IMG/VR virus record: IMGVR_UViG_3300046777_001606
Span: 32,001 to 96,000 of that record
Length of the DNA stretch: 64,000 nucleotides
Origin: a virus
Reading direction: 5' to 3' (one strand)
This document shows positions 1 to 34,768 of the stretch, in pieces. How positions within the stretch are numbered: the first letter of the stretch is position 1; every line of letters begins with the position of its first letter. The notes beneath the pieces are model-generated. The model was not told where the DNA came from and did not search any database. It saw only the letters and a list, made by a program, of their open reading frames with translations. The position numbers and the translations under genes were made by a program.

Positions 1-2
1 CT

Positions 3-3000
3 ACTAATGCCTCGTACTATGTTTCATTAGTTAATGCATATGCAGTAAAATTTCATAAGAGTTTTGAAGATGCTAACGCAGGAATTAATACAATTTCATT
101 AACTTCTTATGGAACTGGATCTCATAGAGTTAAATCCAAATTCAAAAAGAAAAAAATTGGAAGTATAAGTGTTAAAGATTCTGGATTTGGATATGAAAAT
201 AAAAAGATTATCGTAAATTCCTCAGGTATTAGTACTTTTAAAAATACATTATATGCGGAAAATCATGGATATTCGACTGGAGAATTAGTCAGATATTTTT
301 CAACAGATTCTACAGTAATTGGTGGATTATCAACATCAACTTCATATTATGTGACTGTAGTTGATGATAATAATTTTAAATTATCTCAGGTTGGTTCTGG
401 ACAAACCACAATTGATTTTTACCAAAAAACAAATCAATTTATAGATCTAACAGACACTGGAACGGGAAATCATATATTTAATTATCCACCTATAGAAGTT
501 TCAATTAAAGGAACTATTGGAGTAACAACTTTCTCTGGACAAAACTTTGAGGCAGTAATTAATCCAGTCTTTAGGGGAGAAATAAAATCTGTATTTGTTC
601 AGAATAAAGGTATTTCGTATGGATCCCAAAGTATTATCAATGATAACCGACAACCAGAATTTATTTTAGATTCTGGTTCGGGAGCTGAAGTTCTACCTGT
701 TATATTAAACGGAGCAATAATCAATGTTATTATTAGATCACCAGGGTCAAATTATAATTCTCCACCAAACTTAGTTGTAACTGGTAAAGGAACTGGTGCG
801 ATTTTAAGCCCAATACTCATTGATGGTAAATTAAAAGGAGTTTATGTTGTATATGGTGGATATGGATACGAAAATGGGTCAACTTTTATCAATGTTACTC
901 CATCAGGAACAGGATGTGAACTGGAAGCACAAATAAAAACATGGACTATTAATAAAGTACAAAGAAATATTACAACCAATCAAATTAGTGATGATGATGG
1001 ATTTATTGATAATGGAACCAATACTGACTATGGTCTCCAATATAGTCATGCATATGCACCAAGAACTTTAAGAAGACGTATTCTTTCTTCCAAAATCCAA
1101 AATGGTCAGTATGTTTTTTCACCAGATTTACAATTATCATCTGGTATTGAAATAGCATCATCTTCACACTCGCCAATTATTGGATACGCTTATGATGGAA
1201 ATCCAATATATGGTCCATATGGATATGATACTCCAGAGGGTGGAACAATTAGATCAATGATATCTAGTTATGAGCAATCTCTAAGTATTGAAAGACCAGA
1301 TACCAATTTATATCCTGCGGGGTTCTTTATTGAAGATTTTGTTTATACTGGTTCGGGTGATTTAGATGAACATAATGGAAGATATTGCGTAACTCCAGAA
1401 TATCCAAATGGTGTTTATGCTTATTTTGCAACTATATTTAATGGATCGCCAGATGGTTCTGGAATATTTGTAAGATACAAGAGACCTGTATTCCCATATT
1501 TTATTGGAGATTCTTATAAGTCAAAGCCAATTGATTTTAACTTTGATTATAGATCAAACCAAGATTTAACAGATATTAATGCTACAGGATGGGTACGAAA
1601 TACAACACCATATGGACTTTTAAAGTCAAAAACATCTTATGAATATGTAATTAACCCAACTAAAATAAAACAGCAGAAGACATACATCCAAGGTACTTCA
1701 AGAGGATCTGTAGATAGTATCGGTATTCTTACTGCTGGAAATTTATATCAGGTTAATGATAAAATTGTATTTGATCCCACCGTTCAGTCCAATATCAAAG
1801 CATCCGCAAAGGTATCTAAAGTTAAAGGTTCTTTTGTAACAACAGTTAGTTTAGCATCGTCGGTAACTAACGCGGAATTTATTTTATATAACTCAGGAAC
1901 AAATCTCATTGGTTTTACATCTTCACCTCATGGATTTTCTAACAATGATATTGTTAATGTTGTTATAAACGACAAAGAACAAAAAACTGGAAATATTAAA
2001 ACATCAACAAATAATCTGTACTTAACTGCAGGAGTTCCTATTCCTAGTGTAACAGGAGCAGTAACTTATTTCAAAGTAACTGGTAATTTAAATTATCCAA
2101 ACATAAAAGAAAATGATATTTACATTATCAATAATAAAGAACAAGTAAAAGTTTTAGAAATAGATGCAAAATCTTCTAGAATTAAAGTTCTGAGAAATAT
2201 TACTTCAGCTGGTGGTATAACATCATATTCATCTTCTCAAAGATTGATTGAAAAAACAAGAAGACTTCAAATTGATTTGGGAATTTCAACTACTTATCAG
2301 TATAATTTAAATAAAGAAATTTATTTTAACCCCAGAGAAGCACTGGGAATCGGAACAACATCCGGAGTAGGGATTACAACTACATTGCAATTTAGTGACC
2401 CTGGTGTTGGAATTGCTAGTATTACAATACCAACAAGAGCAATCTATCTTCCAAATCATGGATTGGAGACAAATACTGAACTAATTTATTCCGCTAATAG
2501 TGGAACTCCAATTTCAATATCTACAAATGGATCTGTTTCCTATCAAATTCCAGATAACTCAATAGTTTACTGTGCAAAATTTTCCAACGATTTGATCGGA
2601 ATTTCTACAACAAAATTGGGTATTGGTAGTACGGGGTCTTTTGTTGGGTTAGGATCAGAAGTTTCATATTTGATGTATTTTATTGCTACAGGTGTTGGAA
2701 ACACTCATAGCTTTAAAACTAATTATCCTAATGTATTAAAAGGAAAAATTACAAGAAATGTTGTTACAGTATCAACAGCATCTTCGCACGGATTGAGTAT
2801 AGACGATAAAATTGATTTAACTTGTATTGCAGGAATAACCACAAACGTTAAGATTGTATATAATGATTTTAATAGAAGACTTTTAGTAAATCCAAGAAAT
2901 TTTGTTGCATCTGATATTGACGTACAAAACGATATTATCACAATTCCAAACCATCAATATACGATGGGACAAAAAATTATTCACACATCAACTTCGCCAG

Positions 3001-6000
3001 CTAGTGGACTGTCAAATAATAAAATTTATTATGCAATTGTAGTTGATAAAGATAGAATAAAGTTGGCAGATACTTATTATGACTCTACAAATAAAATTCC
3101 AGCAACTGTAGGAATTGCTTCAACTTCTTTTGGAACAATTGCTGCTGTTAACCCACCAATAAAAATTGCAAGAAATCAAAATATTGTATTTGATGTTTCA
3201 GATTCTTCGTTATCTTTCATTAAAGATAATTTACAGTATTCTGCATTTGATCTGAATTTTTACGAAGACAGTAATTTTAGAAATCCATATCTTAAGAGTC
3301 CATCATCTGCAACTTTTGATGTTATAAAATCTGGAAATATTGGTATTGACTCTACGGCAAAAGTAACTCTTAATATTAAGCAAGATACTCCACAAAATCT
3401 TTATTATCAGTTAGAAGTAGTCAATAAAAATATTAATACTCAGATTAAAAAGGACTTATTTATTGATAACGAACTTGTTAATAATAACAATACATTAATT
3501 TTAGTTGATAGTAAGTATAATGGAACTCATACTGTAAGTGGAGTAACGTCAACTGCATTCACATTTAATATCGCAGAAACTCCAGAAGTTGGAAGTTATT
3601 CTTATATACAATCTAATTTATCGTACATTACGTCATCAGAAACTGCCTTTGGATCTATTGAAAAGATAACTATTTTAGATAGTGGATTTGGTTATGAAAT
3701 CGTTCCTAAAGTTTCTGAAATTATTTCGGATTATGGATTCGGGGCTCTTTTATATCCAAAGAGCGAGACAATAGGAAATATTAAAACTTCTAAAATTGCA
3801 GATATTGGATTTGATTATTCTGCAGATCTAACAATTAGACCATCTAGTAAGTTTCCAGATCTAATTAAAATTTCTCCATTAACTTCGTTTGAATCAATCG
3901 GAGTTACTACATCTGGTAGAAGATATTCAACGGTTCCAGATTTAATTGTTTTAGATGGATATACTGGAGAACTTGTAGATGATGTTGAATTATCATATGA
4001 TATTCGTAATAAAAAAGTCGAAATTATTACAAATACAAAATCTCTTTATAATGTTGAGCCTAGAATTATACCTATTAATAATTCTAATGGTGTTGGTATC
4101 AGTTCCGTATTTTTTGATACATCTTCAAAAGATGTAATTGTAACCTTGGGTTCTAGTTTCAGCAATGCCGCAGATTTCCCATTTGATATAGGCAGTAAAG
4201 TATTTGTTGAGGGTATTAGTGTTGGTGTAAATTCAACCGGTAAAGGATATAATTCTGATGGATATCAATATCAACTTTTTACAGTTACAAATACTGATCC
4301 AAATATTGGAGGAGCGGATCCTACTGTAACATACAACCTTACCGAATTCTTAGGGGTCGGAGAATTACCCGGAAGATATGATAGGGTTAATTCTGTAGGT
4401 AGAATTATACCAGAATTCCAATTAGCTAAATTTAATTCTGTTCTTGTTGATCCAAAAGAAATTGTTTATTTTGTTGGTGAAGAAATTTCTTCCACAGACA
4501 ATACAGGAATTGTAAACTCTATTGATACTAGGACTGATTTAATTAAGGTAACTTCAGGTGGAAATTTCTATATTGGAGATTTGCTTGAAGGTAAAACATC
4601 TGGAACTTTGGGTTATATTATTGATATTAAAAAATTTGAATCGAATTATGATGTTTTCCCAACAAGTTTAGTTAGAAAAGGTTGGAAAAAAGAAACTGGA
4701 ACTTTAAATAACTCATTCCAAAGAATCCATGATAGTGATTATCATCAGTATTTTTCGTATTCAGTAAAATCTCCAATTCCATACGATACTTGGAATGACG
4801 CGGTTAGCGCATTAAATCATACATCAGGATTTAAAAAGTTTAGTGATTTGATTATTGAAACAAATAACTTTGTGGGAATTGATACCAATCAAGATAATGC
4901 AACATTTGTTAGAATTGACTTTATTTCCGAAATGGACTTGAATTGTGTGACGGATTTTGATCTAGCTACAGAAAATAGTCTTCTTGTTAAAAATAAATAT
5001 GTTTCCAATGAAATAAGACCAATATCAAGAATTTTACTTGATTATCAACAGTCAATTAATAACAGAGTTTTAACAATTGATGATATTGGACCACAATTTA
5101 ATTCTGCAGAAAGATTTAATAAGTACACTATAATTGATAGCTTTGATTTATTTACTAATAATACATATAGAGCTAGAAAATACCTTGCATTTATAAGAGA
5201 TAAGAGATTTGTAAACGATAGGGAAGTTTTATTAATTTCTACACTTCATAATTCATTTGAAGGATATGTAACACAATATGGAAGAACAGAAACATCTTAT
5301 GATTTAGGATTTTTTGATTTTCTTGTTTTTGGTACGGTTGGTAATCTTGCATTTTATCCAAGAAAGTTTGCAGTTAATGATTTTGATGTTAATTTACTAA
5401 CCTATGATCTAAGAGACTCATTTGCTGGAATAGCGAGTACAAGTGTTGGAACAATTGCTAATATTAACTCTTCAACTGTTCAAATTGCATCTGGGGTTTC
5501 CACTGCGACTACTATTGTTAGTATTGCATCATCCTATAGATCTGCAAAACTTATTGTAGAGATTTCGGGAATTAATCCAGGAATTTCAAGTACGACTCCA
5601 TATTATTTCAGCGAAATAAGTTTACTTCATGATGGAACAAATGTTTATCAAAGTGAATACGGTAATTTGAGTAATGAACCATTCACTGCATCAGTTGGAG
5701 TTGGAATTTGTACTTTTAATGCATATCTTAGCGGATCTGATATCAAACTAGATTTAATACCAAATGCCGGGTTATCTACAACTATTAACGTTAATACTCT
5801 AGCTGTTTCAATAGGAAATAGCGCATTTACTGGTGTTGGAACTTTTGTCGTAGCAACATCAGAGATTAGTTCAAAATACACTTCAATTGCATCATCAACA
5901 TCACCAATTCAAAATAGCGTAGCTTCTTATTCGTATGATGCATATAGTGGTGGATATTTCATCTTTAGTATTGAAGATACAACAAATAACTCTTATGAGA

Positions 6001-9000
6001 TGTGTGAAGTTGTTGTGTGTAATGATAATACAGAAGCATATATTAATGACTTTGGAAATGTCCAATCAAGTGTTGGTCTTGGAACTTTTGGAGTAGGATT
6101 TAGTACATCACTTATAAACGTTTACTTTACTCCAAATCCAAATATTAACGTTCAAGTAAGAGCATATCAAAACGCTTTAGGGAATTATGACGATCAATAC
6201 CCAACGGAAATTGGATTTACAAATTCATCAATTACTGCAGATTCTGGTGTTTATGTTGGAACAAAACGAGATATTCAAAGAACTTTTAATTTAACTTATA
6301 AAAATAATGATATTTTCCAAAGAGCATTTAGTGGAGAAAGTTCTACAGTTGTTGATCTTACAAAAGATCAAATAAGACTTCCAAATCATTATTTTGTTAC
6401 TGGAGAAGAAGTTACTTATGTTCCTAGAGGAAAAGGAACTGTTGCTCCAATTGGAATTGCAACCACATCAATTCCTGGAATCGGGACTACCGACAAGTTA
6501 CCTTCAACTCTTTACATTGTTAAAGTTGATGAGTTAAACGTTAAAGTTGCAACATCAGCTAGCAATGCACTTAAGACAACTCCAGAGGTTCTTGATTTAA
6601 CTTCAGTTGGAATCGGAACCTCTCATATATTCATATGCAAAAATCAAAATGCTAGGGTTTTAATATCAATTGATAATGTTATTCAATCGCCAATTGTAGC
6701 AGCTGCCATTACTGCTTCATTATCTCAAAGAATAACTCCCGTCGATAATGTTATACAGGTTGTTTCTGGAATTTCATCTTATGCATCTGGAGAATTATTA
6801 AAGATTGATGATGAAATTATGTTGATTGAATCTCTTGGATTTGGTGCAACAAACGCAATACTTGTCCAAAGACCTTGGTTAGGAACTGTTCTTGCTACAC
6901 ACGAAGCAAATTCAGTAATTACTAAAATAACTGGAGATTATAATATTACAAATAATGCTATTAACTTTGTTGATGCTCCATATGGTCTAACACCACTTTC
7001 ATCAACAACCAATATAGCTCCAGAAAGAGATTGGATTGGTATCTCCACAAGATCTTCTTTTAATGGAAGATCTTTCATGAGATCTGGATTTCCAAATGGA
7101 ACTAACACTCCATATGCATTAAATTATGTTTTTGATAACATTTCAGATCAATTTAATGGGTTCTCAACATCATTTATTCTGAAAAATAACAAACAAAATA
7201 TTGCTGGTATTCAAACTAGCAACGCAATAATTCTACTTAAAGACGTATTTCAAGGACCAAATAGGATTGGTGGAGGAACAGTTGATGTAGTTTCAAATTA
7301 TGCGTTAACAGAAAATTCTGGAATTACAACAATAATTTTTAACGCCAGCGCATCACCAACAACTTATGATATTAATAACTCTAACATTCCAGTAGGTGGT
7401 GTTATTATATCTTTGGGATCATCAAGTATTGGGTGGAATGATTATCAAGCTCCTATGGGAGCTGGTGGTACAGCAATTGTCTCTGCTGCAGGAACTATTT
7501 CTGCGGTTCGCATCAATAATGCTGGTGGTGGATACAGAACTGGAATTCAAACCTTTGTTAGGGTTGGCGTTAGAACAAATGCCGAAGCAGGAAAGATTAC
7601 TTATGTTGGATTTGCATCAATTTCGGGAGGAAGAGTTCTTGGTGTAGCAATTACTAATGGTGGTGTTGGATTTGCATCAACCAATCCACCACAAGTAGTT
7701 ATAGAAAAACCTGTTCCCTATTCTAATATTCCATTAATATATTCATCTTCCAATCCTGGTGGTGCAGCGGCTGGAGTTGGAACAGGCGCTAAGATTGATC
7801 TTTATATAAGTCAAGAGGGAGAAGCAAAAGATTGGACTCTCATCAATCTTGGATATGGTTATAAACCTGGGGAAATATTAACTGTAGGTTTAGATACCAG
7901 TGGAGTTTTTGGAATTCCTAAAGAATATCTTGGGCGTTTTGCAGATGGTGGAAATCTTCTTTCTAAGAATAGAGCTTTTGTTCAGGAAGAAGTTGTAGCA
8001 TATGTGGAATTTAACTTCCCAGGAATTTCAACAAGTCCGACTTATGATCGTGCAAAATGTAAGAGAGATGTTGGTTATATTGTTGATGCAATTACATTTG
8101 ACTTAGCTTTTGGTGGAAATTCAGAATCAATTAGCGCAGGATTAGCATATTGGAATGCGGGTGCATCTTATGTTGCAAATGAAAGAGCAGAAACTATTTT
8201 TGCATATGATTATGTTAAGTTCATTGGTCAATATATTATCAACAACCAATCTCCACCAACACTTTATCAATTCCCAATTGTAGAGAATCAGGTTTTTGAT
8301 TTTACATTAATTCAAGATTATGAAAATAATAATGCAAATTATTTTCATAGAAGAAAAGATGCAAGAAATCTTATTGTTGGAAATAGACAGGAAATTATAG
8401 ATAGATCTCTTGCTGCAGTCGCAGTTGGATATACCAATTTCTACTTCCCAGGAGAAGCACAGACTACTCCAAGATCAAGATATTATGATGCACACAGATT
8501 AATTCAACTTAATAAGCAAGAAGTTATTGATAGATCTCTTGCATCCGTAGCAATTGGATATTCTGATTTCTACTTCCCAGGAGATGCTCAAACAACAAAT
8601 AGATCAAGATACTATGATGCATATAGATTAATTCAAAATAATAGATCTGAAATTGTTGGTAGCGCATGGACAGCAGTTTCTACTGCATATCCTGGAGTTA
8701 CAACAACGGCATCAAAATGCCAACGAGATCTTGGATATTTTGTTGATGCAGTTTCTACTGACGTATTTACTGGTGGTAACAATTATGCTAGAGAATTTAC
8801 ATTGCAATATTTTAGCAATGGAAGTTTGATTCCAAATGGAGTTCTTGGCGTTCAAACCGAATCCATTTTTGCTTTCCATTCTGCTCGTGATTTCATGAGA
8901 TTGGCTGTAAGAAATCAATTAACTTACACGGATCTCGGTATTAGTTCTGGTCCTCCAACATATGGAATTGGATCAACCGTTGGAATTGCTAGCACTGCAG

Positions 9001-11783
9001 CTTGTTATGATGTACAGTTGAACATTATCAGTTTGACTGGTATTGTTACAACTGTTCTCGGAGCTGCCTCGACAGCAAGCTTACCTGCTAGAAATCTTGG
9101 TAATTTCAATGTTACAGTTGGAGTTGGTAGTACAGTTGGATTTGGATCAACTTCATCTCCTGGCGGTCTTAAGTGTGCCCGAGATCTTGGATATTTTGTT
9201 GATGCAGTTTCTACTGACGTATTTACTGGAGGTAATAATTATTCTAGAAGCTTTACACTCAAATACTTTAGCAATGGAGCTCCACTTTCGCAAGGATTGA
9301 TTGGAGAAGAAGGTCCATCAATATTTGCCTTTAGATATGCTGGCGGATACATGAAGGATGCACTGACAAATCAACTTTATGTTAAGAATCTTGGAATTAG
9401 CTCTGGTCCAGCACTATACAATGGTGCTGGCGGAAATATTGGAGTTGGTAGCACTGCATCATGTAGAGATGTACAGAGCAATGTCGATAATCTTGTAGGA
9501 CTTGTTACTTCTATTATTGGCGCTGGTTCTAGTGTAGGAATTGCATCTACAAACTTTGGATATTTTAGAGTCAATTCACAAACAAACGTCACTAATGCAA
9601 CTATTGTTGGATTTGGAACTACAGTCGGAATTGGTTCCACCAATGTTGTTGGTGGACGTAAGTGTGCCCGCGATTTGGGTTATATTGTTGATGCAGTTGC
9701 ACAGGATGTTTCTTATGGATCTAATCAGCACATAGTTTATGCAACTAAGAAATATTTTAATGGCGCTGGTGTAGCAATTACTAATGGTCTTGTTGGAGAA
9801 ACACAACAATCTATCACGGCTTTCCATGCATTGCGAGATTATGCAAAACTTGCAATAACCAATCAACTTTATAACCAAGATTATAGTATAATCGCGGATC
9901 CAGTTAGCGGTATTAATAGTTCTCTATTATCTTGTGCGAATATAAGATCTAATATTGATACTCTTGTTGGTATTTTAACCGTCGCTATTGGAAGCAGTAG
10001 TTTGTCTGCAGTTCCAGCAGAAACTCTTGGTACTACTGATTGTGCTGACGTAAGATCTGCTCTTGCATCATATGTCGGAATTATTACCACAATTATTGGT
10101 ATCGGTACTTCTGCATGTCCAAGGGTCAGCAATCCATTGTCTAATCCAGTTTCCTTACCAACAACTTTAGGTGCAGCATCATCCACTAGCCCATTCCCAG
10201 AACTTCAAATCGAAGTTACTAAAACACAAAATACAAAATTTGCTGGATGGTCAATTGGAGATCTTGAAGTTTTTGATCCTCTAGATGATCTATTTGATGG
10301 AATAACTAAAAAATTCCCATTATTCTTAGGTGGTACTAGACAAGATATCAGAACCAAAAAAGGATCTACATTGGATATTCAGTCTAACTTACTAATATTC
10401 ATTAATGATATTCTCCAAGTTCCAGGACAAGCATATACATTTACTGGAGGAAGTGTAATCACCTTCTCAGAGGCACCAAGAAGTGGAGATACTTGTAAAA
10501 TCTTGTTCTATAAAGGAACAGGAACCATTGATGTTAGACTTGTAGATATTCTGGAAACAGTTAAAAAGGGTGATGATGTTCAGTTAGTCTCAGATCAATT
10601 CTATGAAACTGAGGATGAGAGAATTGTAAGTTTTATCAATTCTTCAGATAGCATCCAAACTGTAAACTATCGTGGTCTTGGAATATCCAATGATGATACT
10701 TTCAGAAGATCTTTAACTTGGTGCAGACAAACTGAAGATAGAGTGGTTGATGGTGAAGATGTTACAAAGGATAGAATTCTATACGAACCACTAATTAATC
10801 CATCAACAAATATTATAAGAAACGTTGGTATCGGATCTACAGTCATTTTTGTAGATAGCGTTCAACCATTCTTCAATGCAAATAATGAAAATACAACGGC
10901 AGAATATAGATCGAAACTCATTATGGTTTCACAAGATGTTAATCGTAAAGCAATTGCAGAAGCAGTAGTAAGTGTTGGTGGGACTGTAGAGTCTATTACT
11001 ATGATTGAGGGTGGAGCTGGATATATAACACCACCAGAAGTAAGTATTGCAACTCCTATTGGATTCGGAACCACTGCTAGAGCATATGCTACTGCAGTAC
11101 TATCTGGAGATACTGTAGGATCAATTATCGTTTCTAATGGAGGATTTGGATATATTGCAACATTTACTCCACCAGTAGTACATATTGCACCACCAGAAAT
11201 AATAAAAGAAACAATTTCTAATGTAACTTATCTTGGTGATTTTGGTATTATTGTGGGAATCGCAACAACTTCTGTTGGAGTAGCATCAACTGGTATAATA
11301 TTCGATTTTCTAATACCAAATGGTTCTGCAATTAGAGAGATTCTTTATACTGGAGTTGGAGCAACTGATATTAGTGGGATCCAAACTGGATATTATTTCA
11401 CTGTTAAGAATTCTAATATTGGATCTCCTGGATCGGGGTTAATATCATATGATAGAAGTAATAACTTTATTTCTGTTGGATCATCATACTTAGACAATAT
11501 CTATGAAGCATGTAACGTGGTTTTAGCAACAAAAACAATTGTTGGTCTAGGAACAACTACAATTGCTAGAGTGACTGTTAGTGTTAATGACAATTCTGGT
11601 TTATCTGGTCTTTCGTCTGGTTTTTATGGGGATTTTAGTTGGGGTAGAATCTCTGCAACTGAAAGACCAGTTCCACAATCCTTTAATGCATATACATCAT
11701 ATGGAATTGGTGGTATTTCTACCTCTGCTGTTATTAGAAGAGTTAATCCTCTTAGATATATTGGTTATACAACCACAGTATAA
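3..11783 (+). CDS. Giant baseplate wedge protein (gp7-like), 5'-partial; contains a YHYH-like domain and a phycobiliprotein-like insert
   Basis: The frame is open from position 3 (TNASYYVSLV...), so the GTG at 351 is not the true start. It lies directly upstream of gp8. It has repeated GxGY beta modules and the motifs HSPIIGYAYDGNPIYGPYGY and DLDEHNGRYCVTPEYPNGVYAYF. Confidence 0.8.
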   Translation, partial: TNASYYVSLVNAYAVKFHKSFEDANAGINTISLTSYGTGSHRVKSKFKKKKIGSISVKDSGFGYENKKIIVNSSGISTFKNTLYAENHGYSTGELVRYFSTDSTVIGGLSTSTSYYVTVVDDNNFKLSQVGSGQTTIDFYQKTNQFIDLTDTGTGNHIFNYPPIEVSIKGTIGVTTFSGQNFEAVINPVFRGEIKSVFVQNKGISYGSQSIINDNRQPEFILDSGSGAEVLPVILNGAIINVIIRSPGSNYNSPPNLVVTGKGTGAILSPILIDGKLKGVYVVYGGYGYENGSTFINVTPSGTGCELEAQIKTWTINKVQRNITTNQISDDDGFIDNGTNTDYGLQYSHAYAPRTLRRRILSSKIQNGQYVFSPDLQLSSGIEIASSSHSPIIGYAYDGNPIYGPYGYDTPEGGTIRSMISSYEQSLSIERPDTNLYPAGFFIEDFVYTGSGDLDEHNGRYCVTPEYPNGVYAYFATIFNGSPDGSGIFVRYKRPVFPYFIGDSYKSKPIDFNFDYRSNQDLTDINATGWVRNTTPYGLLKSKTSYEYVINPTKIKQQKTYIQGTSRGSVDSIGILTAGNLYQVNDKIVFDPTVQSNIKASAKVSKVKGSFVTTVSLASSVTNAEFILYNSGTNLIGFTSSPHGFSNNDIVNVVINDKEQKTGNIKTSTNNLYLTAGVPIPSVTGAVTYFKVTGNLNYPNIKENDIYIINNKEQVKVLEIDAKSSRIKVLRNITSAGGITSYSSSQRLIEKTRRLQIDLGISTTYQYNLNKEIYFNPREALGIGTTSGVGITTTLQFSDPGVGIASITIPTRAIYLPNHGLETNTELIYSANSGTPISISTNGSVSYQIPDNSIVYCAKFSNDLIGISTTKLGIGSTGSFVGLGSEVSYLMYFIATGVGNTHSFKTNYPNVLKGKITRNVVTVSTASSHGLSIDDKIDLTCIAGITTNVKIVYNDFNRRLLVNPRNFVASDIDVQNDIITIPNHQYTMGQKIIHTSTSPASGLSNNKIYYAIVVDKDRIKLADTYYDSTNKIPATVGIASTSFGTIAAVNPPIKIARNQNIVFDVSDSSLSFIKDNLQYSAFDLNFYEDSNFRNPYLKSPSSATFDVIKSGNIGIDSTAKVTLNIKQDTPQNLYYQLEVVNKNINTQIKKDLFIDNELVNNNNTLILVDSKYNGTHTVSGVTSTAFTFNIAETPEVGSYSYIQSNLSYITSSETAFGSIEKITILDSGFGYEIVPKVSEIISDYGFGALLYPKSETIGNIKTSKIADIGFDYSADLTIRPSSKFPDLIKISPLTSFESIGVTTSGRRYSTVPDLIVLDGYTGELVDDVELSYDIRNKKVEIITNTKSLYNVEPRIIPINNSNGVGISSVFFDTSSKDVIVTLGSSFSNAADFPFDIGSKVFVEGISVGVNSTGKGYNSDGYQYQLFTVTNTDPNIGGADPTVTYNLTEFLGVGELPGRYDRVNSVGRIIPEFQLAKFNSVLVDPKEIVYFVGEEISSTDNTGIVNSIDTRTDLIKVTSGGNFYIGDLLEGKTSGTLGYIIDIKKFESNYDVFPTSLVRKGWKKETGTLNNSFQRIHDSDYHQYFSYSVKSPIPYDTWNDAVSALNHTSGFKKFSDLIIETNNFVGIDTNQDNATFVRIDFISEMDLNCVTDFDLATENSLLVKNKYVSNEIRPISRILLDYQQSINNRVLTIDDIGPQFNSAERFNKYTIIDSFDLFTNNTYRARKYLAFIRDKRFVNDREVLLISTLHNSFEGYVTQYGRTETSYDLGFFDFLVFGTVGNLAFYPRKFAVNDFDVNLLTYDLRDSFAGIASTSVGTIANINSSTVQIASGVSTATTIVSIASSYRSAKLIVEISGINPGISSTTPYYFSEISLLHDGTNVYQSEYGNLSNEPFTASVGVGICTFNAYLSGSDIKLDLIPNAGLSTTINVNTLAVSIGNSAFTGVGTFVVATSEISSKYTSIASSTSPIQNSVASYSYDAYSGGYFIFSIEDTTNNSYEMCEVVVCNDNTEAYINDFGNVQSSVGLGTFGVGFSTSLINVYFTPNPNINVQVRAYQNALGNYDDQYPTEIGFTNSSITADSGVYVGTKRDIQRTFNLTYKNNDIFQRAFSGESSTVVDLTKDQIRLPNHYFVTGEEVTYVPRGKGTVAPIGIATTSIPGIGTTDKLPSTLYIVKVDELNVKVATSASNALKTTPEVLDLTSVGIGTSHIFICKNQNARVLISIDNVIQSPIVAAAITASLSQRITPVDNVIQVVSGISSYASGELLKIDDEIMLIESLGFGATNAILVQRPWLGTVLATHEANSVITKITGDYNITNNAINFVDAPYGLTPLSSTTNIAPERDWIGISTRSSFNGRSFMRSGFPNGTNTPYALNYVFDNISDQFNGFSTSFILKNNKQNIAGIQTSNAIILLKDVFQGPNRIGGGTVDVVSNYALTENSGITTIIFNASASPTTYDINNSNIPVGGVIISLGSSSIGWNDYQAPMGAGGTAIVSAAGTISAVRINNAGGGYRTGIQTFVRVGVRTNAEAGKITYVGFASISGGRVLGVAITNGGVGFASTNPPQVVIEKPVPYSNIPLIYSSSNPGGAAAGVGTGAKIDLYISQEGEAKDWTLINLGYGYKPGEILTVGLDTSGVFGIPKEYLGRFADGGNLLSKNRAFVQEEVVAYVEFNFPGISTSPTYDRAKCKRDVGYIVDAITFDLAFGGNSESISAGLAYWNAGASYVANERAETIFAYDYVKFIGQYIINNQSPPTLYQFPIVENQVFDFTLIQDYENNNANYFHRRKDARNLIVGNRQEIIDRSLAAVAVGYTNFYFPGEAQTTPRSRYYDAHRLIQLNKQEVIDRSLASVAIGYSDFYFPGDAQTTNRSRYYDAYRLIQNNRSEIVGSAWTAVSTAYPGVTTTASKCQRDLGYFVDAVSTDVFTGGNNYAREFTLQYFSNGSLIPNGVLGVQTESIFAFHSARDFMRLAVRNQLTYTDLGISSGPPTYGIGSTVGIASTAACYDVQLNIISLTGIVTTVLGAASTASLPARNLGNFNVTVGVGSTVGFGSTSSPGGLKCARDLGYFVDAVSTDVFTGGNNYSRSFTLKYFSNGAPLSQGLIGEEGPSIFAFRYAGGYMKDALTNQLYVKNLGISSGPALYNGAGGNIGVGSTASCRDVQSNVDNLVGLVTSIIGAGSSVGIASTNFGYFRVNSQTNVTNATIVGFGTTVGIGSTNVVGGRKCARDLGYIVDAVAQDVSYGSNQHIVYATKKYFNGAGVAITNGLVGETQQSITAFHALRDYAKLAITNQLYNQDYSIIADPVSGINSSLLSCANIRSNIDTLVGILTVAIGSSSLSAVPAETLGTTDCADVRSALASYVGIITTIIGIGTSACPRVSNPLSNPVSLPTTLGAASSTSPFPELQIEVTKTQNTKFAGWSIGDLEVFDPLDDLFDGITKKFPLFLGGTRQDIRTKKGSTLDIQSNLLIFINDILQVPGQAYTFTGGSVITFSEAPRSGDTCKILFYKGTGTIDVRLVDILETVKKGDDVQLVSDQFYETEDERIVSFINSSDSIQTVNYRGLGISNDDTFRRSLTWCRQTEDRVVDGEDVTKDRILYEPLINPSTNIIRNVGIGSTVIFVDSVQPFFNANNENTTAEYRSKLIMVSQDVNRKAIAEAVVSVGGTVESITMIEGGAGYITPPEVSIATPIGFGTTARAYATAVLSGDTVGSIIVSNGGFGYIATFTPPVVHIAPPEIIKETISNVTYLGDFGIIVGIATTSVGVASTGIIFDFLIPNGSAIREILYTGVGATDISGIQTGYYFTVKNSNIGSPGSGLISYDRSNNFISVGSSYLDNIYEACNVVLATKTIVGLGTTTIARVTVSVNDNSGLSGLSSGFYGDFSWGRISATERPVPQSFNAYTSYGIGGISTSAVIRRVNPLRYIGYTTTV
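8724..9229 (+). repeat. Identical 50-bp direct repeat (8724-8773 and 9180-9229) encoding RDLGYFVDAVSTDVFTG
   Basis: cgagatcttggatattttgttgatgcagtttctactgacgtatttactgg is read at both positions. Confidence 0.9.
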
Positions 11784-13363: not shown

Positions 13364-16300
13364 ATGCCCCAAAAAACAAACCTCAATGTTTCTCCATATT
13401 TTGATGATTTTGATCCGAGAGATAATTACTATAAAGTCCTTTTTAAGCCAGGATATCCTGTTCAGGCTAGAGAATTAACAACGTTACAATCAATTCTTCT
13501 CAACCAATCAGAATCCTTTGGTAAGCATATATTTAAGGAAGGATCTGTAGTAATTCCTGGACAAGTAAGATACGACAATCCAATATACGCAGTTGAAATT
13601 GAATCAGAATTTAATGGAATTCCTATTTCATTATATTTTGATGAGATGCTCAACAAAACTGTTATTGGGGCAGATAGTGGAGTTAAAGCAACTATTTTTT
13701 ATTTACTAAAGAATACCGAATCTGAAAGAGGAAATTATACAATTTATGTAAAATATATTTCTGCAGGTGGGACAGACTTTACTAATAAAAAGTTCTTTGA
13801 TAATGAAAATTTAATCTTAGATACTGATTTAACTTATAGTGGGATTACAATTCCAAGTGGACAAGAATTTGTAAAAACAATCCAAACAAATGCTACCTCC
13901 GAAGGATCTTCTGCAACTGTAGCAGATGGTGTATATTTTATCAGAGGTATTTTCGCAAACGTCAATACTCAAACTATTCTTTTAGATCAGTACGGAACTT
14001 CACCTTCATATAGAGTTGGATTTACTGTTGTTGAGTCCATAGTTACTTCAGATGATGATCCAGATTTATATGATAATGCACAAGGATTTTCAAATTTCTC
14101 TGCTCCTGGAGCAGATAGATTTAAATTAGACTTAATTTTCTCTAAAAAAGAAATCACAGATACTGATACAGATTCTTTTGTTGAAATATTAAGAGTAACA
14201 AACGGAGTACCTGAGTATTTAAATTTAAACCCACAATATAATATTCTCAGAGAAGAAATTGCAAGAAGAGTTTATGATCAATCTGGTGATTTCTTTGTAA
14301 AACCATTTACTCTTTATTTAAGAGACAGTTTAAATAATAGAACAACAACAGATGGTCTTTATTATGATGATCAGATTACGATCAATGGTAATAAACCATC
14401 TGACAATTTAATGATTTATGAAATTGGTCCAGGAAAAGCATACGTTAATGGATTTGATATTGAAACCAGATCAAAAAGATTTTTAGACGTAGAAAAACCA
14501 AGAACAACAAATACAATACAAGCAAATAATGTAACATATAATGCAGGGTTACTTTTCCCTGTAAATAATGGATATGGAGCTCCTCCCATAGGATTGGGAA
14601 CAGATGTAACATTAAGTTTGATGAATTCTAGAAAGAATTCTGATCCATCTGTTGCGGCAGGAACTACTATCGGATTAGCTCGTATATATGATTTTGTTCC
14701 CGAATCAAATTATGAAAATGCATCTAGTAGATTATCATTGAGATTATTTGATGTTCAAACTTACACTGTGATTGGTCTAACAACATCTATAACTCAATCA
14801 ACTCCAGCTGTTATAAAAGGTTCCAGAAGTAAAGCAACTGGATATTTGAGATCCAGCGTTACTGGTTCAAGTTCTTTAACTCTATATGACGTATCTGGAT
14901 CATTTATAGAAAATGAAGCGATTTCTATAAATGGCATTTCAAATGGAAGATTAATTAAAACAGTAACTGATTATGATATCTCAGATGTAAGATCTGTATA
15001 CGGAAAAGTTGGAACAACTACTTTTACTGCAGATACTATCTTAGAAAATAAGCAACTAATAGCTCCTGCAGGATCGACATTTCAAATTACCGCAAGATTT
15101 AGTGGTATAAGCACGGTATCCTGTGGATTAAACACCACTTTTATTAATAGTGTAAAAGTAAATGATATTATCACATATTCAAGTCCAAATCCAACTTCAG
15201 TACCAATTTATAATAGAGTAGCAAGTATTGGTGCTGGCGGTACATTTTTTACAATTGCTGGTCTCACCACCGTATCTGGTATTTGTGATGGAACTTTACC
15301 AGCATCTTCGGTTACAGTTTCAAATATTACAAAACTTTATGGTTCTGTTTATAATCAATCAGATGCCTCTTTATTAACTTTACTCCCACAATCAGTAATT
15401 TCTAATATTTCTTTAGAAAATAATATTTTACGCCAAAGAATTGACTTCAAAACGGTAACTATTACTGCATCTTCACTAACTATTCAAATTACTGAACCAG
15501 ATTTATATTTCGAGTCATTTGATGAAGATAGATTTGTTATTAGTTATAGTGATGGAACTATTGAACCATTAAGAAGAGATAAGTATAGTTTAGATGTCAC
15601 AGGAAAAATACTAACCTTCAATGGGTTATCTAAAACAACAGGAACAGCAAACGTAATTGCAACGGTTAAGAATTTAAAACCTAACTCCAAAAATAAAAAG
15701 TTCAATAAAGTTTCAACATTAGTCATTGATAGATCAAGATTAACATCGTCCGGTATTGGATCAACAACATTAAACGATGGATTAACCTATAGTCAAGTCT
15801 ATGGTACTAGAGTACAAGATGAAGATATTTGTCTTAACGTTCCCGATGTTGTAAGAGTTTTAGCTGTATATGAATCGGATTCCACATCAGATCCATCAAT
15901 TCCAAAATTAGAATTATCTTCATTTACAGGTCAAACAAACTCTACAGCAGATTTTAACTTAGGTGAAGAACTTTTAGGAAAAACTAGTGGATCTGTTGCT
16001 TTAGTTGTTAATAAAGTTAATGCAACTAATATAGAAGTTGTGTATTTAAATGCATTTGAATTTGTTGAGGGTGAAGAAATAGTTTCGAAAGAAACTGCTG
16101 TAACTGCAAAAATAACAACGAAATATACAGTAAGTAAAAATATAACACAAAATTATAATTTCGATAACGGGCAAAGAGCTACATTATATGATTATGGTAG
16201 AATTATTAGAAAAACTAATGTTGCTGCACCAACTAAAAAGATAGAAATAATATTCCAATACTATAGTATTGATAGCAATGATACTGGCGAATTTATAACT

Positions 16301-19300
16301 GTAAACAGTTATCCAGAAAGTTCATATAATATGGATATTCCATATTATGAAAACAATAGAGTAACTGATTATATTGATATAAGACCAAGAGTAGATGTTT
16401 ATAATCCATCAACAGCAACATTGTCTCCATTTGAATTTTCAACAAGAAGATTTGACGGAGCAGGAACATATTCAAAATATATTCTTGCACCTGATGAGAA
16501 TTTAAGTCTCAGTTATTCTTATTACCTGGGAAGAATTGATAGGTTGCTTTTGAATCCAGATGGAACATTTGAAGTTGCACAGGGAATTCCTGCAGATGAT
16601 CCAATTCCACCACTATTAAAGGCAAATACATTAGATATTGCGAAGATTAATATTCCACCATACTTGTTTAATATTAAAAACGCACAAGTAGACATGTCTG
16701 TACATAAGAGATACAGAATGTCTGATATTTCAATTCTTGAAGATAGAATTAGAAGAGTAGAAGAATATACGACGCTTTCTATGTTAGAAAGCAAAACAGA
16801 GAATTTAAAAATTAAAGATGCAGCTACGGGATTAGATAGATTTAAGTCAGGATTTTTTGTTGATAATTTTAGCACTCACGATTATCTCGATTTGAAAAAT
16901 ATCTTATTTAGATCTTCTATTGATAAGAGTACAAATACTTTAAGACCAACAAATTATACATCTTCTTTAGATTTACAACTTGGATCAGAAGCTATTCTTG
17001 GAGTAACGACTTCATTTTCGTCAACAGCTGATCATGGATTTGTTTCAGACTTGGGTTCAATTGGAGTCAAAAAAACAGGAGATCTTGTAACTCTAGCATA
17101 TACTGAAAAATTATATTTCCAACAAATATATGCAACAAGAACCGAAAATGTTACGCCTTTCTTAGTCAAATATTGGACCGGAGCCATTACATTAAATCCA
17201 CCAATGGATAACTGGGTAGATGAAGCTGCAGTTAGATCGACTAGTTTTAGAGAAGTAACAGAAATTACTCCACTTCCAGACATTAATATAACAAATGTAA
17301 ACAACATCACAGAAAATAGAGATGTATTTATCGATAATACTAATTTAACAGTTAATCCATCAGCGTCTTTTGATTGGATTGGAAATGCTAACACCTTAAT
17401 TCAACAAAGGGTAGGAAGCGGTAGAGTCTCAATTAATACGAGTGCAAGCAATATTCGCTTAGAAATTAGAGGGCGTATTAATGGAGCAGAAGCAGAATTT
17501 GTACGTAGAGTTCTTCCACCAGATGCCGCTAGAGATTTTATTAATAGATCTAGTAGCAATGGTATTGCATTTATCAATTTTAATCCAAGAAGAGGTCAAT
17601 TTACAAATATTAGAGAAACAACAAATGTATCTACATCTGTAAATACAACCTCAAATACTGTTACTACGGTTATTCCACCGGTTGTAACAACAAATGATGT
17701 CATTACGGAATCAGTATCGCATTATACTCAAATAATAAGATTTTTAAGAAGTAGAAATATTGAATTTGATGTTAAAGGATTAAAACAAAGAACGATTTTT
17801 TATCCATTCTTTGATTCAATAGACATATCAAGATATATCACACCAAAACTTCTAGAGATAAGAATGGTATCTGGTAAATTTGTTGCTGGAGAAACAGTAG
17901 AAAGTGATCCATTATTCACAAGAAGAAAAGCCAGATTTAGATTGTGTAGTCCAAATCATGAATATGGTCCATCGACAAATCCAACAAGTACTTTTGCATT
18001 AAATCCTTATGATCAACAGGTTTTCCCATCAAATTATACTGAGTCTTCAACTGTACTTAATGTAGATACCCACTCATTACAACTTCCATCAGAAACCGAA
18101 TTCTATGGATGTGTTGATGTTAATATGCCTTTGATAGGACAATCATCTGGAGCAAGAGCTGTTGTAACAAGAGTAAGACTACTTTCATCAAATAATGGAA
18201 GATTAGTCGGATCATTCTTTGTTCCTGATCCAAATTCTCCAGGTAATCCACAATTTATTAATGGGACAAATACATTTACATTAATTGACACTCCGACACT
18301 AAATCCTGCTGCTACTGCAGCTGGAACAGAAGTTGTTTCCTCTGAAAGTAGTGCTGAAGAAGACTTTACTTCTAGTGGACAACTTAATATAACTGAAACT
18401 AATGTATTAACTACAAGAAATATTAGAATTACTCCAGCTAGAAATGTTAACACAACAACGATAACAAACACTACAACAAACACTACAACAAGAACTAGAG
18501 CTGGAACACAAATATCTCCAGTATGGGAGGTTTGGGACCCGCTCGCACAATCATTCTATGTTCCCGATGAAAGTGGAATATTCTTAACTTCTGTAGAGGT
18601 TTTCTTTGAAACTAAGGATAATAATGGAATCCCCGTAACATTACAAATTAGACCAATGGTTAATGGTCTTCCAAGTGATATGGTTGTTCCATTTTCTGAA
18701 GTAACCCTGACTCCAGATCAAATAAGACTTTCTGGAAATGGAACTGTAGCTACTAAATTTACTTTCCCAAGTCCGGTATACTTATCGGGACCTCAACAAC
18801 AGGAGATAAGACAAGCTCCTATTGGTAGTCAACAATCTTCCCAATTCTGTGTAGTTTTATTATCTCTTAGTGCAGAATATAGAGTCTTTATTGCTAGACT
18901 TACAGAAAATGATATTATTAGTGGTGTTAAGATAACTAAACAACCAACTCTTGGAAGTCTGTTTAAATCGCAAAATGGATCTACGTGGTCTCCAAGTCAA
19001 CTAGAAGATTTGAAATATAATTTATACAGAGCAGAATTTGTAAATGAAGGTCTCCTCAGATTCTATAATCCAAAATTATCTGCTAAAAATAAAAAAGTTA
19101 CTGTTTTACCAGCAAATGGTGTTGTTCCATTATCCAAAAAAATTATTGTTGGATTAGGATCCACTGGATATAGTGCAACAAATATAGTTCCAGGAGTAAC
19201 TTTGATTCAGGGATCTGCAACGGGAACTTTAACTGCTATTGGCGGAAGTATTACCGCAGGAACAGGAGTAACAGTTACAAATCCAGGGACTGGATATACA

Positions 19301-34600: not shown

Positions 34601-34768
34601 TTTGGTGCTCAAGGAACTTTTGGTACTCAAGGATCTACAGGAACTGGTTCTCAAGGTGCTGCTGGAAGTGCTCAAGGAACTGCAGGTGCTCAAGGTGCTG
34701 CTGGCGGTGGCGGCGGCGGAGGAGTAAGTAACTCTCTAGCAATCGCTTATGCTATAGGTTTAAGTTAA
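31619..34768 (+). CDS. Collagen-like tail fibre protein
   Basis: Three Gly-X-Y blocks, GIGTTNP repeats and NIAIG/NVSIG head-like repeats. Confidence 0.8.
31760..32116 (+). repeat. Collagen-like (G-X-Q)n block 1, ~39 triplets
   Basis: 9-nt-period caagg repeats encoding [14 protein letters not shown]... Confidence 0.95.
32273..32645 (+). repeat. Collagen-like block 2 ([12 protein letters not shown])
   Basis: ctcaaggaac-type tandem repeats. Confidence 0.95.
34190..34700 (+). repeat. Collagen-like block 3, interrupted (GSQ/GST/GTF/GAQ)
   Basis: ctcaagg tandem repeats with GTG/GSA register breaks. Confidence 0.95.

What the first reader, a model, noticed from the sequence alone, without database searches (positions are those of the whole stretch)
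7935..10110. Four phycobiliprotein-like domains with bilin-site-like cysteines inside a baseplate wedge protein
Seen: an alpha-helical-looking ~720-aa insert in an otherwise beta-rich protein, with four K-C-x-R-D-[LV]-G-Y motifs. These are KCKRDVGYIVDAITFDLAFGGN (Cys codon 8058), KCQRDLGYFVDAVSTDVFTGGN (8718), KCARDLGYFVDAVSTDVFTGGN (9174) and KCARDLGYIVDAVAQDVSYGSN (9663). There are also four later Cys helices: CYDVQLNI (9003), CRDVQSNV (9462), CANIRSNI (9933) and DCADVRSALASYV (10041). Established: the alpha-phycocyanin Cys84 site reads KCARDIGYYLRMVTYCL.AGG, where the Arg/Asp pair holds the bilin. The beta-subunit Cys155 region reads DCS.L.SE.ASYF. The upstream segments (DAYRLIQNNRSEIVGSAWTAVSTAYPG) resemble phycobiliprotein helix B ending in FP/YP. 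Inference: the virion displays globin-fold domains related to antenna proteins. They could be chromophorylated by host lyases (a pigmented or light-sensing baseplate), act as host mimicry, or be a purely structural reuse of the fold.
Basis: partly seen in the sequence, partly recalled or inferred. Interest (0 to 1): 0.92.

Follow-up and report, generated by a model that had tools for sequence, protein, structure and literature searches.

The report
Phycobiliprotein-like domains nested in cyanophage baseplate
The giant baseplate protein of this T4-like cyanobacterial virus carries four domains, inserted one inside another, that are true relatives of the host's light-harvesting pigment proteins and keep the pigment-attachment residues, so it can now be tested whether the virus particle carries pigment and responds to light (pigment binding itself is not shown).

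Summary
All four K-C-x-R-D-x-G-Y motifs and all four later Cys helices lie at the stated codons, and nowhere else in the window.

They sit in a 4833-aa gene at the gp7 position, between gp6- and gp8-like baseplate genes. This is a T4-like cyanophage contig that is 53% complete.

The 732-aa insert is homologous to phycobiliproteins (PBPs):
- Pfam PF00502 is the only family hit.
- hhalign against ten Synechococcus PBPs gives 94% probability, E 9e-8.
- The AlphaFold model of one unit has pLDDT 93.
- Its best PDB matches are all PBPs or ApcE (Z 12-16).

Each unit is the globin core only, without the X/Y dimerisation helices.

The units are not simple tandem copies. They look recursively nested: U1[A-G], AB, AB, AB-EFGH, EFGH, EFGH, H[U1].

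Across about 1,400 distinct copies, the triad equivalent to Cys84/Arg86/Asp87 is the most conserved feature (97/92/99%). The three residues decay together.

Among isolates the domain is found only in cyanophages (385 of 385 records). All 11 reference genomes with CpeT have it, but some genomes with the domain lack CpeT.

Bilin attachment is plausible (about 0.5) and unproven.

This scan has found the same phenomenon before on other DNA. No paper in the library searched describes it.

The parts
1..11783 (+). Giant baseplate wedge gene at the gp7 position, 4833 aa. Its ATG lies 2718 nt upstream of the window, at contig position 29282. The stop is at window 11783.
   Evidence: phrog_2885 baseplate wedge subunit, E 0. 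Open frame of 4837 aa on the contig. Start mapped in L081. Flanked by a gp6-like gene (phrog_219) and a gp8-like gene (phrog_438).
7935..10130 (+). 732-aa helical insert made of four phycobiliprotein-like domains.
   Evidence: Pfam PF00502, 32.2 bits, E 1.2e-7 on the insert. AlphaFold on A2: pLDDT 73.3, pTM 0.73.
7935..8249 (+). Unit 1, helices A-G (outer domain). E-helix Cys codon at 8058 (KCKRDVGY).
   Evidence: A1 profile positions 3-107, E 4e-14. Orthologous N-anchor conserved in 20 loci.
8343..8471 (+). Lone A/B helix hairpin x, the proposed N-terminal part of unit 4.
   Evidence: Read directly from the sequence. Three hairpins are present in all eight orthologues that have three inner units.
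8472..8600 (+). Lone A/B helix hairpin y, the proposed N-terminal part of unit 3.
   Evidence: A1 profile positions 1-33, E 1e-7. Also.
8601..9107 (+). Unit 2, a complete contiguous domain (A-B-E-F-G-H). Cys codons at 8718 (E helix) and 9003 (H helix).
   Evidence: A1 positions 1-170, E 4e-80. AlphaFold pLDDT 92.9, pTM 0.90. PDB top hits are all PBPs.
9156..9563 (+). Unit 3 body, helices E-H only. Cys codons at 9174 and 9462.
   Evidence: A1 positions 38-170, E 6e-54.
9654..10034 (+). Unit 4 body, helices E-H only. Cys codons at 9663 and 9933.
   Evidence: A1 positions 37-169, E 8e-39.
10032..10115 (+). Lone H helix that closes unit 1. Cys codon at 10041 (TDCADVRSALASYVG).
   Evidence: A1 positions 133-160, E 3e-4. 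The C-anchor is conserved (50-76% identity) downstream of a variable number of inner units in 20 loci.

Best explanation
Shown: the gp7-position baseplate protein of this T4-like cyanophage contains four domains homologous to the globin core (helices A, B, E, F, G, H) of phycobiliproteins. Strongly indicated: the domains arose by recursive domain-in-domain insertion. Unit 2 is contiguous. It sits in the B-E loop of unit 3, which sits in the B-E loop of unit 4. That whole block sits in the G-H loop of unit 1. Inferred: the domains keep the ancestral ligand site. A bilin made in the infected cell (phycocyanobilin or phycoerythrobilin) would be bound by the Arg/Asp pair and thioether-linked to the E-helix Cys. 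Where present, a second bilin would be linked to the Cys at the N-cap of helix H, the position served by T-type lyases such as CpeT in beta subunits. Attachment would be carried out by host lyases, by the phage's own CpeT where there is one, or autocatalytically as in ApcE. The baseplate periphery would then carry chromophores that could make adsorption respond to light. The confidence given applies to the ligand-site step. The homology and fold are about 0.95. A light-gated adsorption role is about 0.2.
For: Homology:
- PF00502 is the only Pfam family hit.
- All 16 PDB sequence hits of the A1 profile are PBPs.
- hhalign of A1 against ten PBPs gives probability 94.4%, E 8.7e-8. It maps C40/R42/D43 onto Cys84/Arg86/Asp87.
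- The AlphaFold model of unit 2 has pLDDT 92.9. Foldseek top hits are all PBPs, TM 0.62-0.69.
- VIA-align top 8 hits are PBPs or ApcE: Z 12.3-15.6, rmsd 1.9-2.6 A, 115-135 residues aligned. In the whole-insert model Z is 15-17.

Ligand site:
- Over about 1,720 copies, C is 97%, R 92% and D 99% conserved. These are among the most conserved columns.
- In the 27 copies without Cys, R falls from 96% to 48% and D from 100% to 67%. D54 and N60 stay at 96% and 81%.
- The PBP residues that are invariant in A5 but sit outside the bilin site (D13, R93) are not kept.

No obligatory disulfide between the two Cys:
- The H-helix Cys is present in only 226 of 454 contiguous copies that have the E-helix Cys.
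- Seven of 21 orthologues lost unit 1's C-x-R-D yet keep its H-helix Cys.

Distribution:
- tblastn hits are 211/211 and 385/385 cyanophage records out of 50,697 phage records.
- The domain is absent from T4, KVP40 and Pelagibacter phage HTVC008M, which is itself a Kyanoviridae member.

Link to CpeT:
- 11 of 11 CpeT-carrying reference genomes have the domain. None of 11 domain-free genomes has CpeT.
- cpeT lies 1-2 kb upstream of a domain-bearing fibre gene in S-WAM2, S-PM2, Syn1 and six IMG/VR contigs.

Phenotype in the literature:
- P-HM1 and P-HM2 (domain present) do not adsorb in the dark. P-SSM2 (no domain found) does.
- Light dependence of S-PM2 adsorption does not need host photosynthesis (PMC6628666).

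Nesting:
- Split HMM matches in this gene.
- The number of AB hairpins equals the number of E-H bodies: 3:3 in the window and seven orthologues, 2:2 in the L002 group.
- The piece order is (AB)^n-full-(EH)^m. An AB piece is never followed directly by an EH piece, while AB-to-full occurs 45 times and full-to-EH 51 times.
Against: - No chromophore has been observed. Everything about bilin is inference.
- One unit alone scores 19.5 bits against PF00502, under the cut-off of 22.2. Only 17 of 46 orthologues hit at E <= 0.01.
- hhalign shows the B-E loop is about 9-11 residues shorter than in PBPs. From my own knowledge, that loop helps enclose the Cys84 bilin.
- No CpeT, ferredoxin-dependent bilin reductase or heme oxygenase is on this contig, though it is only 53% complete.
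- The nearest complete isolate, DSL-LC03, and a 100%-complete IMG/VR genome have the domain without CpeT.
- The conservation figures come from copies found with a profile that contains the motif, so degenerate copies are under-sampled.
- All named carriers belong to one phage lineage. The restriction to cyanophages and the CpeT association are therefore not phylogenetically independent.
- I could not read model coordinates. Pocket shape and Cys-Cys distances are untested.
- One carrier contig is binned with a Saprospiraceae MAG and shows no cyanophage marker.
Confidence: 0.5

Rival explanations
1. Purely structural reuse. A PBP-derived helical module was captured once by an ancestral cyanomyovirus. 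It is used as a rigid, easily nestable spacer in baseplate and fibre proteins, with no chromophore. The Cys/Arg/Asp triad would be kept for folding or stability.
For: - The domain multiplies up to 34 times per protein and nests like a building block.
- It lacks the X/Y helices and the D13/R93 residues.
- The B-E loop is shortened.
- Some units have lost the motif while the domain persists.
- Several genomes carry the domain without CpeT.
- No paper in the searched library reports pigmented cyanophage particles.
Against: - A lone Cys kept in 97-98% of about 1,400 distinct copies of an extracellular protein is unusual for a spacer. The other domain positions vary freely.
- The three residues that make the bilin site in PBPs are lost together, while other conserved residues stay.
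- Every CpeT-carrying reference genome has the domain.
Confidence: 0.35
2. The conserved site binds something other than a bilin, such as another tetrapyrrole, a metal, or a host surface ligand. Alternatively, the Cys acts in redox or inter-domain disulfide chemistry that stabilises or triggers the baseplate.
For: - Polar residues not found in PBPs are almost invariant (D54 98%, Y70 98%, N60 85%, N14 89%). This suggests a site remodelled relative to PBPs.
- Other branches of the same fold bind other ligands: heme in sensor globins, and a different partner in photocobilins. These appear at Z 8-11.
Against: - The motif K-C-x-R-D-x-G-Y matches alpha-phycocyanin residues 83-90 at six of eight positions.
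- PBPs stand above every other globin family in both sequence and structure searches.
- No partner Cys is consistently present.
Confidence: 0.1
3. Host mimicry. The domains imitate antenna subunits so as to engage host phycobilisome, lyase or degradation machinery during infection.
For: Only the homology to host antenna proteins.
Against: - The domains are embedded in a 4833-aa virion baseplate protein in the late structural module.
- They lack the X/Y helices and the D13/R93 residues. From my own knowledge, PBP subunits use these to pair.
- They are only about 15% identical to PBPs.
Confidence: 0.03

Closest known systems
Phycobiliprotein alpha/beta subunits (Pfam PF00502: CpcA/B, CpeA/B, ApcA/B)
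   Same: - Globin-like core, helices A-B-E-F-G-H.
- The motif K-C-x-R-D-x-G-Y equals alpha-phycocyanin residues 83-90.
- Helix B ends in Y/F-P.
- A second Cys sits just before helix H, as beta-Cys153/155 does.
- Best by sequence: CpcA. Best by structure: PE/PC beta subunits.
   Different: - No X/Y helices, and no counterpart of the invariant D13/R93.
- Shorter B-E loop.
- A beta-hairpin-like insert in the G-H loop.
- About 15% identity.
- Embedded in multiple, nested copies in a virion protein rather than being a free 160-180-aa antenna subunit.
- Bilin binding unknown.
ApcE (core-membrane linker) phycobiliprotein domain
   Same: A PBP domain embedded in a large multidomain protein. Structural match Z 12.3-14.0 to 4xxi, 7eyd, 7sc7 and 9wg7. 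From my own knowledge, its B-E region carries a large loop insertion and it attaches its bilin autocatalytically. Both are precedents for what is proposed here.
   Different: ApcE has one PBP domain. It is part of the phycobilisome and uses a different Cys position. Here whole domains, not loops, are inserted, and the protein is a phage baseplate component.
T4 gp7 baseplate wedge protein and its cyanophage counterparts
   Same: Gene position between gp6-like and gp8-like genes. phrog_2885 match over residues 1-2411 of the window-encoded part. P-HM2 and S-RIM8 homologues are annotated gp7 and also carry the domain.
   Different: 4833 aa. It carries the PBP-like insert and a YHYH domain, neither of which was found in T4 (for the PBP-like domain).
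Recursively nested domain insertions, such as the Si3 insertion of cyanobacterial RNA polymerase beta' cited in earlier scan note e1-5677515
   Same: Order of the type A(N)-B(N)-C-B(C)-A(C). Here it reads (AB)^n-full-(EH)^n.
   Different: A different fold and a different host protein. Nesting here is inferred from sequence order and piece counts, not from a solved structure.

Membership tests
Phycobiliprotein family (PF00502) | Globin-like helical core (A, B, E, F, G, H) superposable on solved PBPs | tested here: met
   The unit 2 model has pLDDT 92.9. VIA-align gives Z 15.6, rmsd 1.9 A, 135 residues aligned to 5aqd_M. The top 8 hits are all PBPs or ApcE. Foldseek TM is 0.62-0.69.
Phycobiliprotein family (PF00502) | Sequence match to the family model at or above its curated cut-off | tested here: inconclusive
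   The insert scores 32.2 bits and the whole protein 22.5 bits, against a cut-off of 22.2. Unit 2 alone scores 19.5 bits, and 17 of 46 orthologues hit at E <= 0.01. hhalign against 10 PBPs gives probability 94.4%, E 8.7e-8 over 58 columns.
Phycobiliprotein family (PF00502) | Cys84-x-Arg86-Asp87 chromophore-site triad on helix E | tested here: met
   Present in all four units. It aligns to Cys84/Arg86/Asp87. Conservation across about 1,720 copies is 97%, 92% and 99%.
Phycobiliprotein family (PF00502) | N-terminal X/Y helix pair and the D13/R93 residues used for alpha-beta pairing | tested here: not met
   The model aligns from chain residue about 32-34 onward. The R93 column is Asp in the phage domain, and D13 has no counterpart. 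That these residues serve in pairing is from my own knowledge.
Phycobiliprotein family (PF00502) | Covalently bound bilin | not testable with these tools
   This needs spectroscopy, a Zn-blot or mass spectrometry.
Phycobiliprotein family (PF00502) | Assembly into (alpha-beta)3 discs of the phycobilisome | not testable with these tools
   Unlikely, given the missing X/Y helices and the virion context. This is inference.
T4-type baseplate wedge protein gp7 | Homology to the baseplate wedge subunit, and position between gp6 and gp8 in the late structural module | tested here: met
   phrog_2885, E 0. Neighbours are phrog_219 (gp6-like) and phrog_438 (gp8-like). Sheath, portal, scaffold and major head genes lie downstream.

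The most novel reading that the evidence does not exclude
The virion itself is a photoreceptor. Bilins attached to the PBP-like domains of baseplate and fibre proteins would gate adsorption by light. The long-unexplained phage genes cpeT, pebS, pcyA and ho1 would exist at least partly to chromophorylate the phage's own structural proteins, not the host antenna.
Probability: 0.2. Interest if true: 0.95.

Novelty: new variant of a known kind. Interest (0 to 1): 0.8.

Why it matters
Two questions about cyanophages have stayed open.

1. Why do many cyanomyoviruses carry cpeT and bilin-synthesis genes, even when the host lacks phycobilisomes? PMC3037559 calls the role 'a mystery' and 'unresolved'.
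2. Why do some cyanophages adsorb only in the light, independently of host photosynthesis? PMC6628666 suggests light-sensitive receptors and/or tail fibres.

A PBP-derived domain with an intact bilin-site triad on the adsorption apparatus gives both questions one concrete, testable molecular candidate. In the genomes sampled, the domain is present in every CpeT-carrying genome.

Even without pigment, this would be a host antenna fold captured by a virus, multiplied hundreds of times and nested up to about eight levels deep. That is an unusual case of protein architecture evolution.

Tried and rejected
- Megablast of the region against isolate phages: no match.
- ESM Atlas look-alikes for unit 2: no usable hit.
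- Complex prediction of hairpin y with the unit 3 body, meant to test nesting: no verdict, score 0.07. It counts neither for nor against.
- Fold search with the whole-insert model: every row aligned to unit 2, so it could not show which hairpin packs on which body.
- CpeT, bilin reductase, heme oxygenase and psbA on the window's own contig: none found, but the contig is only 53% complete.
- Cluster look-up of ten giant homologues: no names, all metagenomic.
- The earlier scan note that the domain occurs only in phages with CpeT: rejected. DSL-LC03, a 100%-complete IMG/VR genome, P-SSM7 and S-ShM2 have the domain with no significant CpeT match.
- An obligatory disulfide between the E-helix and H-helix Cys: judged unlikely from presence/absence patterns. 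It was not tested on coordinates, which the tools do not expose.
- Five full-text literature searches for any description of PBP-like domains in cyanophage virion proteins: nothing found. The Gasper et al. 2017 paper on phage CpeT is not held. What I say about T-type lyases rests on the review PMC10452541 and on my own knowledge.
Full report
**What is there**

The finding lies in a single giant ORF. In the window it is open at the 5' end (3..11783). On the contig the frame is 4837 codons long. The first ATG lies 2718 nt upstream of the window, which gives a protein of 4833 aa.

The contig is an IMG/VR record of 107.8 kb, judged 53% complete.

The gene follows a 637-aa gp6-like baseplate wedge gene (phrog_219) and precedes a 517-aa gp8-like one (phrog_438). 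Its own N-terminal 2400 residues match phrog_2885, baseplate wedge subunit. Sheath, portal, scaffold, major head and terminase genes follow. It is therefore the gp7-position protein of a T4-like phage.

The nearest isolate is the freshwater Synechococcus phage DSL-LC03, 63% identical over unit 1.

**The observation**

A six-frame scan finds the motif RD.GY..D exactly four times. All four are in this frame, with Cys codons at 8058, 8718, 9174 and 9663.

The four later Cys helices are at 9003, 9462, 9933 and 10041. A ninth Cys is at 10116. The insert holds 9 of the protein's 25 cysteines.

**Homology to phycobiliproteins: sequence**

- PF00502 (Phycobilisome protein) is the only Pfam family that matches the insert: E 1.2e-7, 32.2 bits against a cut-off of 22.2.
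- That score sums several weak stretches. Unit 2 alone reaches 19.5 bits. 17 of 46 orthologues hit at E <= 0.01, and no other family hits.
- I built a profile of 46 unit-2 orthologues from IMG/VR contigs (A1). It finds 16 PDB sequences at E < 1, and all are PBPs.
- I fetched ten PBP genes from a Synechococcus MAG and aligned them (A5). hhalign of A1 against A5 gives probability 94.4%, E 8.7e-8 over 58 columns.
- That alignment places helix B on helix B and C40/R42/D43 on Cys84/Arg86/Asp87.

**Homology to phycobiliproteins: structure**

- AlphaFold2 without templates models unit 2 at pLDDT 92.9 and pTM 0.90.
- Foldseek's top rows are all PBP subunits, TM 0.62-0.69 over about 166 columns.
- An independent all-against-representatives search puts eight PBP or ApcE chains on top: Z 12.3-15.6, rmsd 1.9-2.6 A, 115-135 residues aligned.
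- Other globin-fold sensors follow at Z 8-11.
- The alignments start at PBP residue about 32. The phage unit is therefore the globin core without the X/Y helices.

**Architecture**

The units are not four tandem copies. The A1 profile matches the gene in pieces:
- positions 3-107 at 7935-8249 (unit 1 without helix H);
- positions 1-33 at 8472-8570 (a lone A/B hairpin);
- positions 1-170 at 8601-9107 (unit 2, complete);
- positions 38-170 and 37-169 at 9168-9566 and 9654-10034 (units 3 and 4 without A/B);
- positions 133-160 at 10032-10115 (a lone helix H).

A third A/B hairpin is visible at 8343-8471.

In 20 related loci, the unit-1 body and the lone H helix are conserved as a pair around a variable number of inner units. 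The number of free A/B hairpins always equals the number of E-H bodies. It is 3:3 in the window and seven orthologues, and 2:2 in the L002 group.

Across 138 distinct giant homologues the pieces follow the order (AB)^n-full-(EH)^m:
- an AB piece is never followed directly by an EH piece (0 cases), against 45 AB-to-full and 51 full-to-EH junctions;
- n and m differ by at most one in 44 of 58 blocks;
- depths reach about eight.

The simplest reading is recursive insertion of whole domains into the B-E loop. In this protein the whole block also sits in the G-H loop of unit 1.

The whole-insert model (pLDDT 73.3, pTM 0.73) is compatible with this. I could not read its contacts. The complex prediction meant to test one hairpin-body pair gave no verdict.

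**Is the bilin site kept?**

A search of 1.84 billion representative proteins finds 992 proteins with the domain. Of these, 250 score below E 1e-30. All of the 150 best listed are far longer than a free PBP subunit, most being giant proteins, and they carry up to 34 stretches each.

Over about 1,720 aligned copies the most conserved columns are C40 (97%), R42 (92%), D43 (99%), D54 (98%) and Y70 (98%).

In the 27 distinct copies that lack the Cys:
- Arg drops from 96% to 48% and Asp from 100% to 67%;
- D54 and N60 stay at 96% and 81%.

The triad therefore behaves as one unit, separate from the fold-keeping residues. By contrast D13 and R93, invariant in the ten PBPs, have no counterpart. From my own knowledge these two form the alpha-beta interface salt bridge, which would not be needed in a domain without X/Y helices.

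The second Cys sits just before helix H. It has the same spacing to a conserved aromatic residue as beta-Cys153/159/165 in the fetched CpcB, MpeB and CpeB. This is the site served by T-type lyases (PMC10452541).

It is present in only half of the contiguous copies that have the first Cys (226 of 454). It stays invariant in seven orthologues whose unit 1 lost C-x-R-D. The two Cys are therefore not obligatory disulfide partners.

Points against a canonical pocket:
- the B-E loop is 9-11 residues shorter than in PBPs;
- several strongly conserved polar residues are foreign to PBPs.

**Distribution**

- tblastn of unit 2 and unit 1 against 50,697 isolate phage records hits 211 and 385 records. Every one is named Synechococcus, Prochlorococcus, Cyanophage or (one record) Marine.
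- A six-frame profile search of 25 complete genomes finds the domain in 14 cyanomyoviruses. It is absent from T4, KVP40, the SAR11 phage HTVC008M (classified in Kyanoviridae), P-SSP7, P-SS2, Ma-LMM01 and S-TIM5. It is also absent from four cyanomyoviruses: P-SSM2, S-CRM01, S-SM2 and S-SSM7.
- A pattern scan of 185,579 species genomes gives two contigs. One is a 194-kb contig in a Synechococcus MAG that looks like a cyanomyovirus.
- The other is a 155-kb phage-like contig binned with a Saprospiraceae MAG. It has two intact motifs but no T4-type capsid gene, psbA, hli or cpeT. Its host is unknown. It is the one possible exception to the restriction to cyanophages.

**CpeT**

CpeT (PF06206) is found in 11 of the 25 genomes, and all 11 have the domain. 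None of the 11 domain-free genomes has CpeT. Three genomes have the domain without a significant CpeT match: P-SSM7, S-ShM2 and DSL-LC03. So does one 100%-complete IMG/VR genome.

Among the 18 T4-like cyanophages the table is 11/3/0/4 (both present / domain only / CpeT only / neither). The one-sided Fisher p is about 0.011, calculated by hand and not corrected for shared ancestry.

In S-WAM2, S-PM2, Syn1 and six IMG/VR contigs, cpeT lies 1-2 kb upstream of a domain-bearing fibre gene.

This pattern (CpeT never without the domain, the domain sometimes without CpeT) is what one expects if the domain is CpeT's substrate. It is also compatible with shared ancestry. The window's own contig has no CpeT, bilin reductase or heme oxygenase, but it is incomplete. 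Its nearest complete relative also lacks CpeT.

**Literature**

- Sullivan et al. 2010 state that the role of phage pcyA/pebS 'remains a mystery' and that of cpeT is 'unresolved' (PMC3037559).
- Liu et al. 2019 show that P-HM1 and P-HM2 do not adsorb in the dark while P-SSM2 does. They attribute this to light-sensitive receptors and/or tail fibres, and note that for S-PM2 the effect does not need photosynthesis (PMC6628666).
- In my searches P-HM1, P-HM2 and S-PM2 have the domain (5, 5 and 11 matches). P-SSM2 has none. That is three or four phages: suggestive only.
- Five full-text searches found no description of PBP-like domains in cyanophage virion proteins.
- The scan's own notebook shows that the same phenomenon was noted on at least eight other windows. 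Those are unchecked AI notes. I retested the claims I use.

**Verdict**

That these are PBP-homologous domains in a baseplate protein is, in my judgement, close to certain. The nested architecture is well supported by sequence order and piece counts, though not by contacts. That the domains bind a bilin is the best single explanation for the conservation pattern, but it remains unproven; I put it near 0.5. A role in light-dependent adsorption is a further inference, at about 0.2.

The domain is a new, virion-embedded and oligomerisation-free branch of a known family.

Noticed in passing
L108 (G030:C1:80475-87221), domain at G030:C1:83475-85166: A 155-kb phage-like contig binned with a Saprospiraceae (Bacteroidota) MAG carries a 2104-aa ORF with three PBP-like domain matches and two intact C-x-R-D motifs. 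The contig has a J-like central tail fibre and phrog_1645 structural genes. The MAG has no Gp23, psbA, hli or CpeT. The host is unknown. This is either a non-T4 cyanophage or the first carrier outside cyanophages.
   Followed up: partly
P0002, P0004, P0006, P0021, P0024 (homologues): Giant metagenomic proteins carry up to 34 domain stretches. Their piece order reads, for example, AB x8, full, EH x6 (P0002), or the exactly balanced AB3-full-EH3 then AB2-full-EH2 (P0006). This implies domain-in-domain nesting up to about eight levels.
   Followed up: partly
L054:886-3495 and L073:886-3495 (alignment A2, columns about 560-700): Two orthologues carry an extra non-helical segment of about 140 aa inside the G-H loop of the third unit. 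The G-H loop, like the B-E loop, therefore accepts foreign insertions.
   Followed up: no
L049, L061, L062, L064, L054, L073, L044 (alignment A2, columns 40-50); L015 and L076 (alignment A1): Some orthologues have lost the C-x-R-D motif in one unit (for example W-K-S-G or F-K-S-D) while keeping the rest of that unit and its H-helix Cys. These are natural site-knockouts that could serve as controls.
   Followed up: partly
window 1149-1433 (+): A YHYH domain (PF14240, E 6e-24) lies in the N-terminal part of the same baseplate protein.
   Followed up: no
window 13364-21007 (+): A second giant gene (2547 aa) lies directly after the gp8-like gene. It matches only PHROGs of unknown function (phrog_358, phrog_877) and has no PBP-like domain.
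   Followed up: no
window 38829-40799 (+): A 656-aa ORF within the structural module has an N-terminal glucosyltransferase-like match (phrog_2835, E 9e-42).
   Followed up: no
window 31619-34768 (+): A 1049-aa ORF has collagen-like tail fibre repeats (phrog_5073, phrog_1806 and many others).
   Followed up: no
L082 (S-WAM2, NC_031935.1:17190-33280): In S-WAM2 the CpeT-like gene is separated from the 4760-aa PBP-domain 'short tail fiber' gene only by six tRNA genes and two HNH endonuclease genes.
   Followed up: partly
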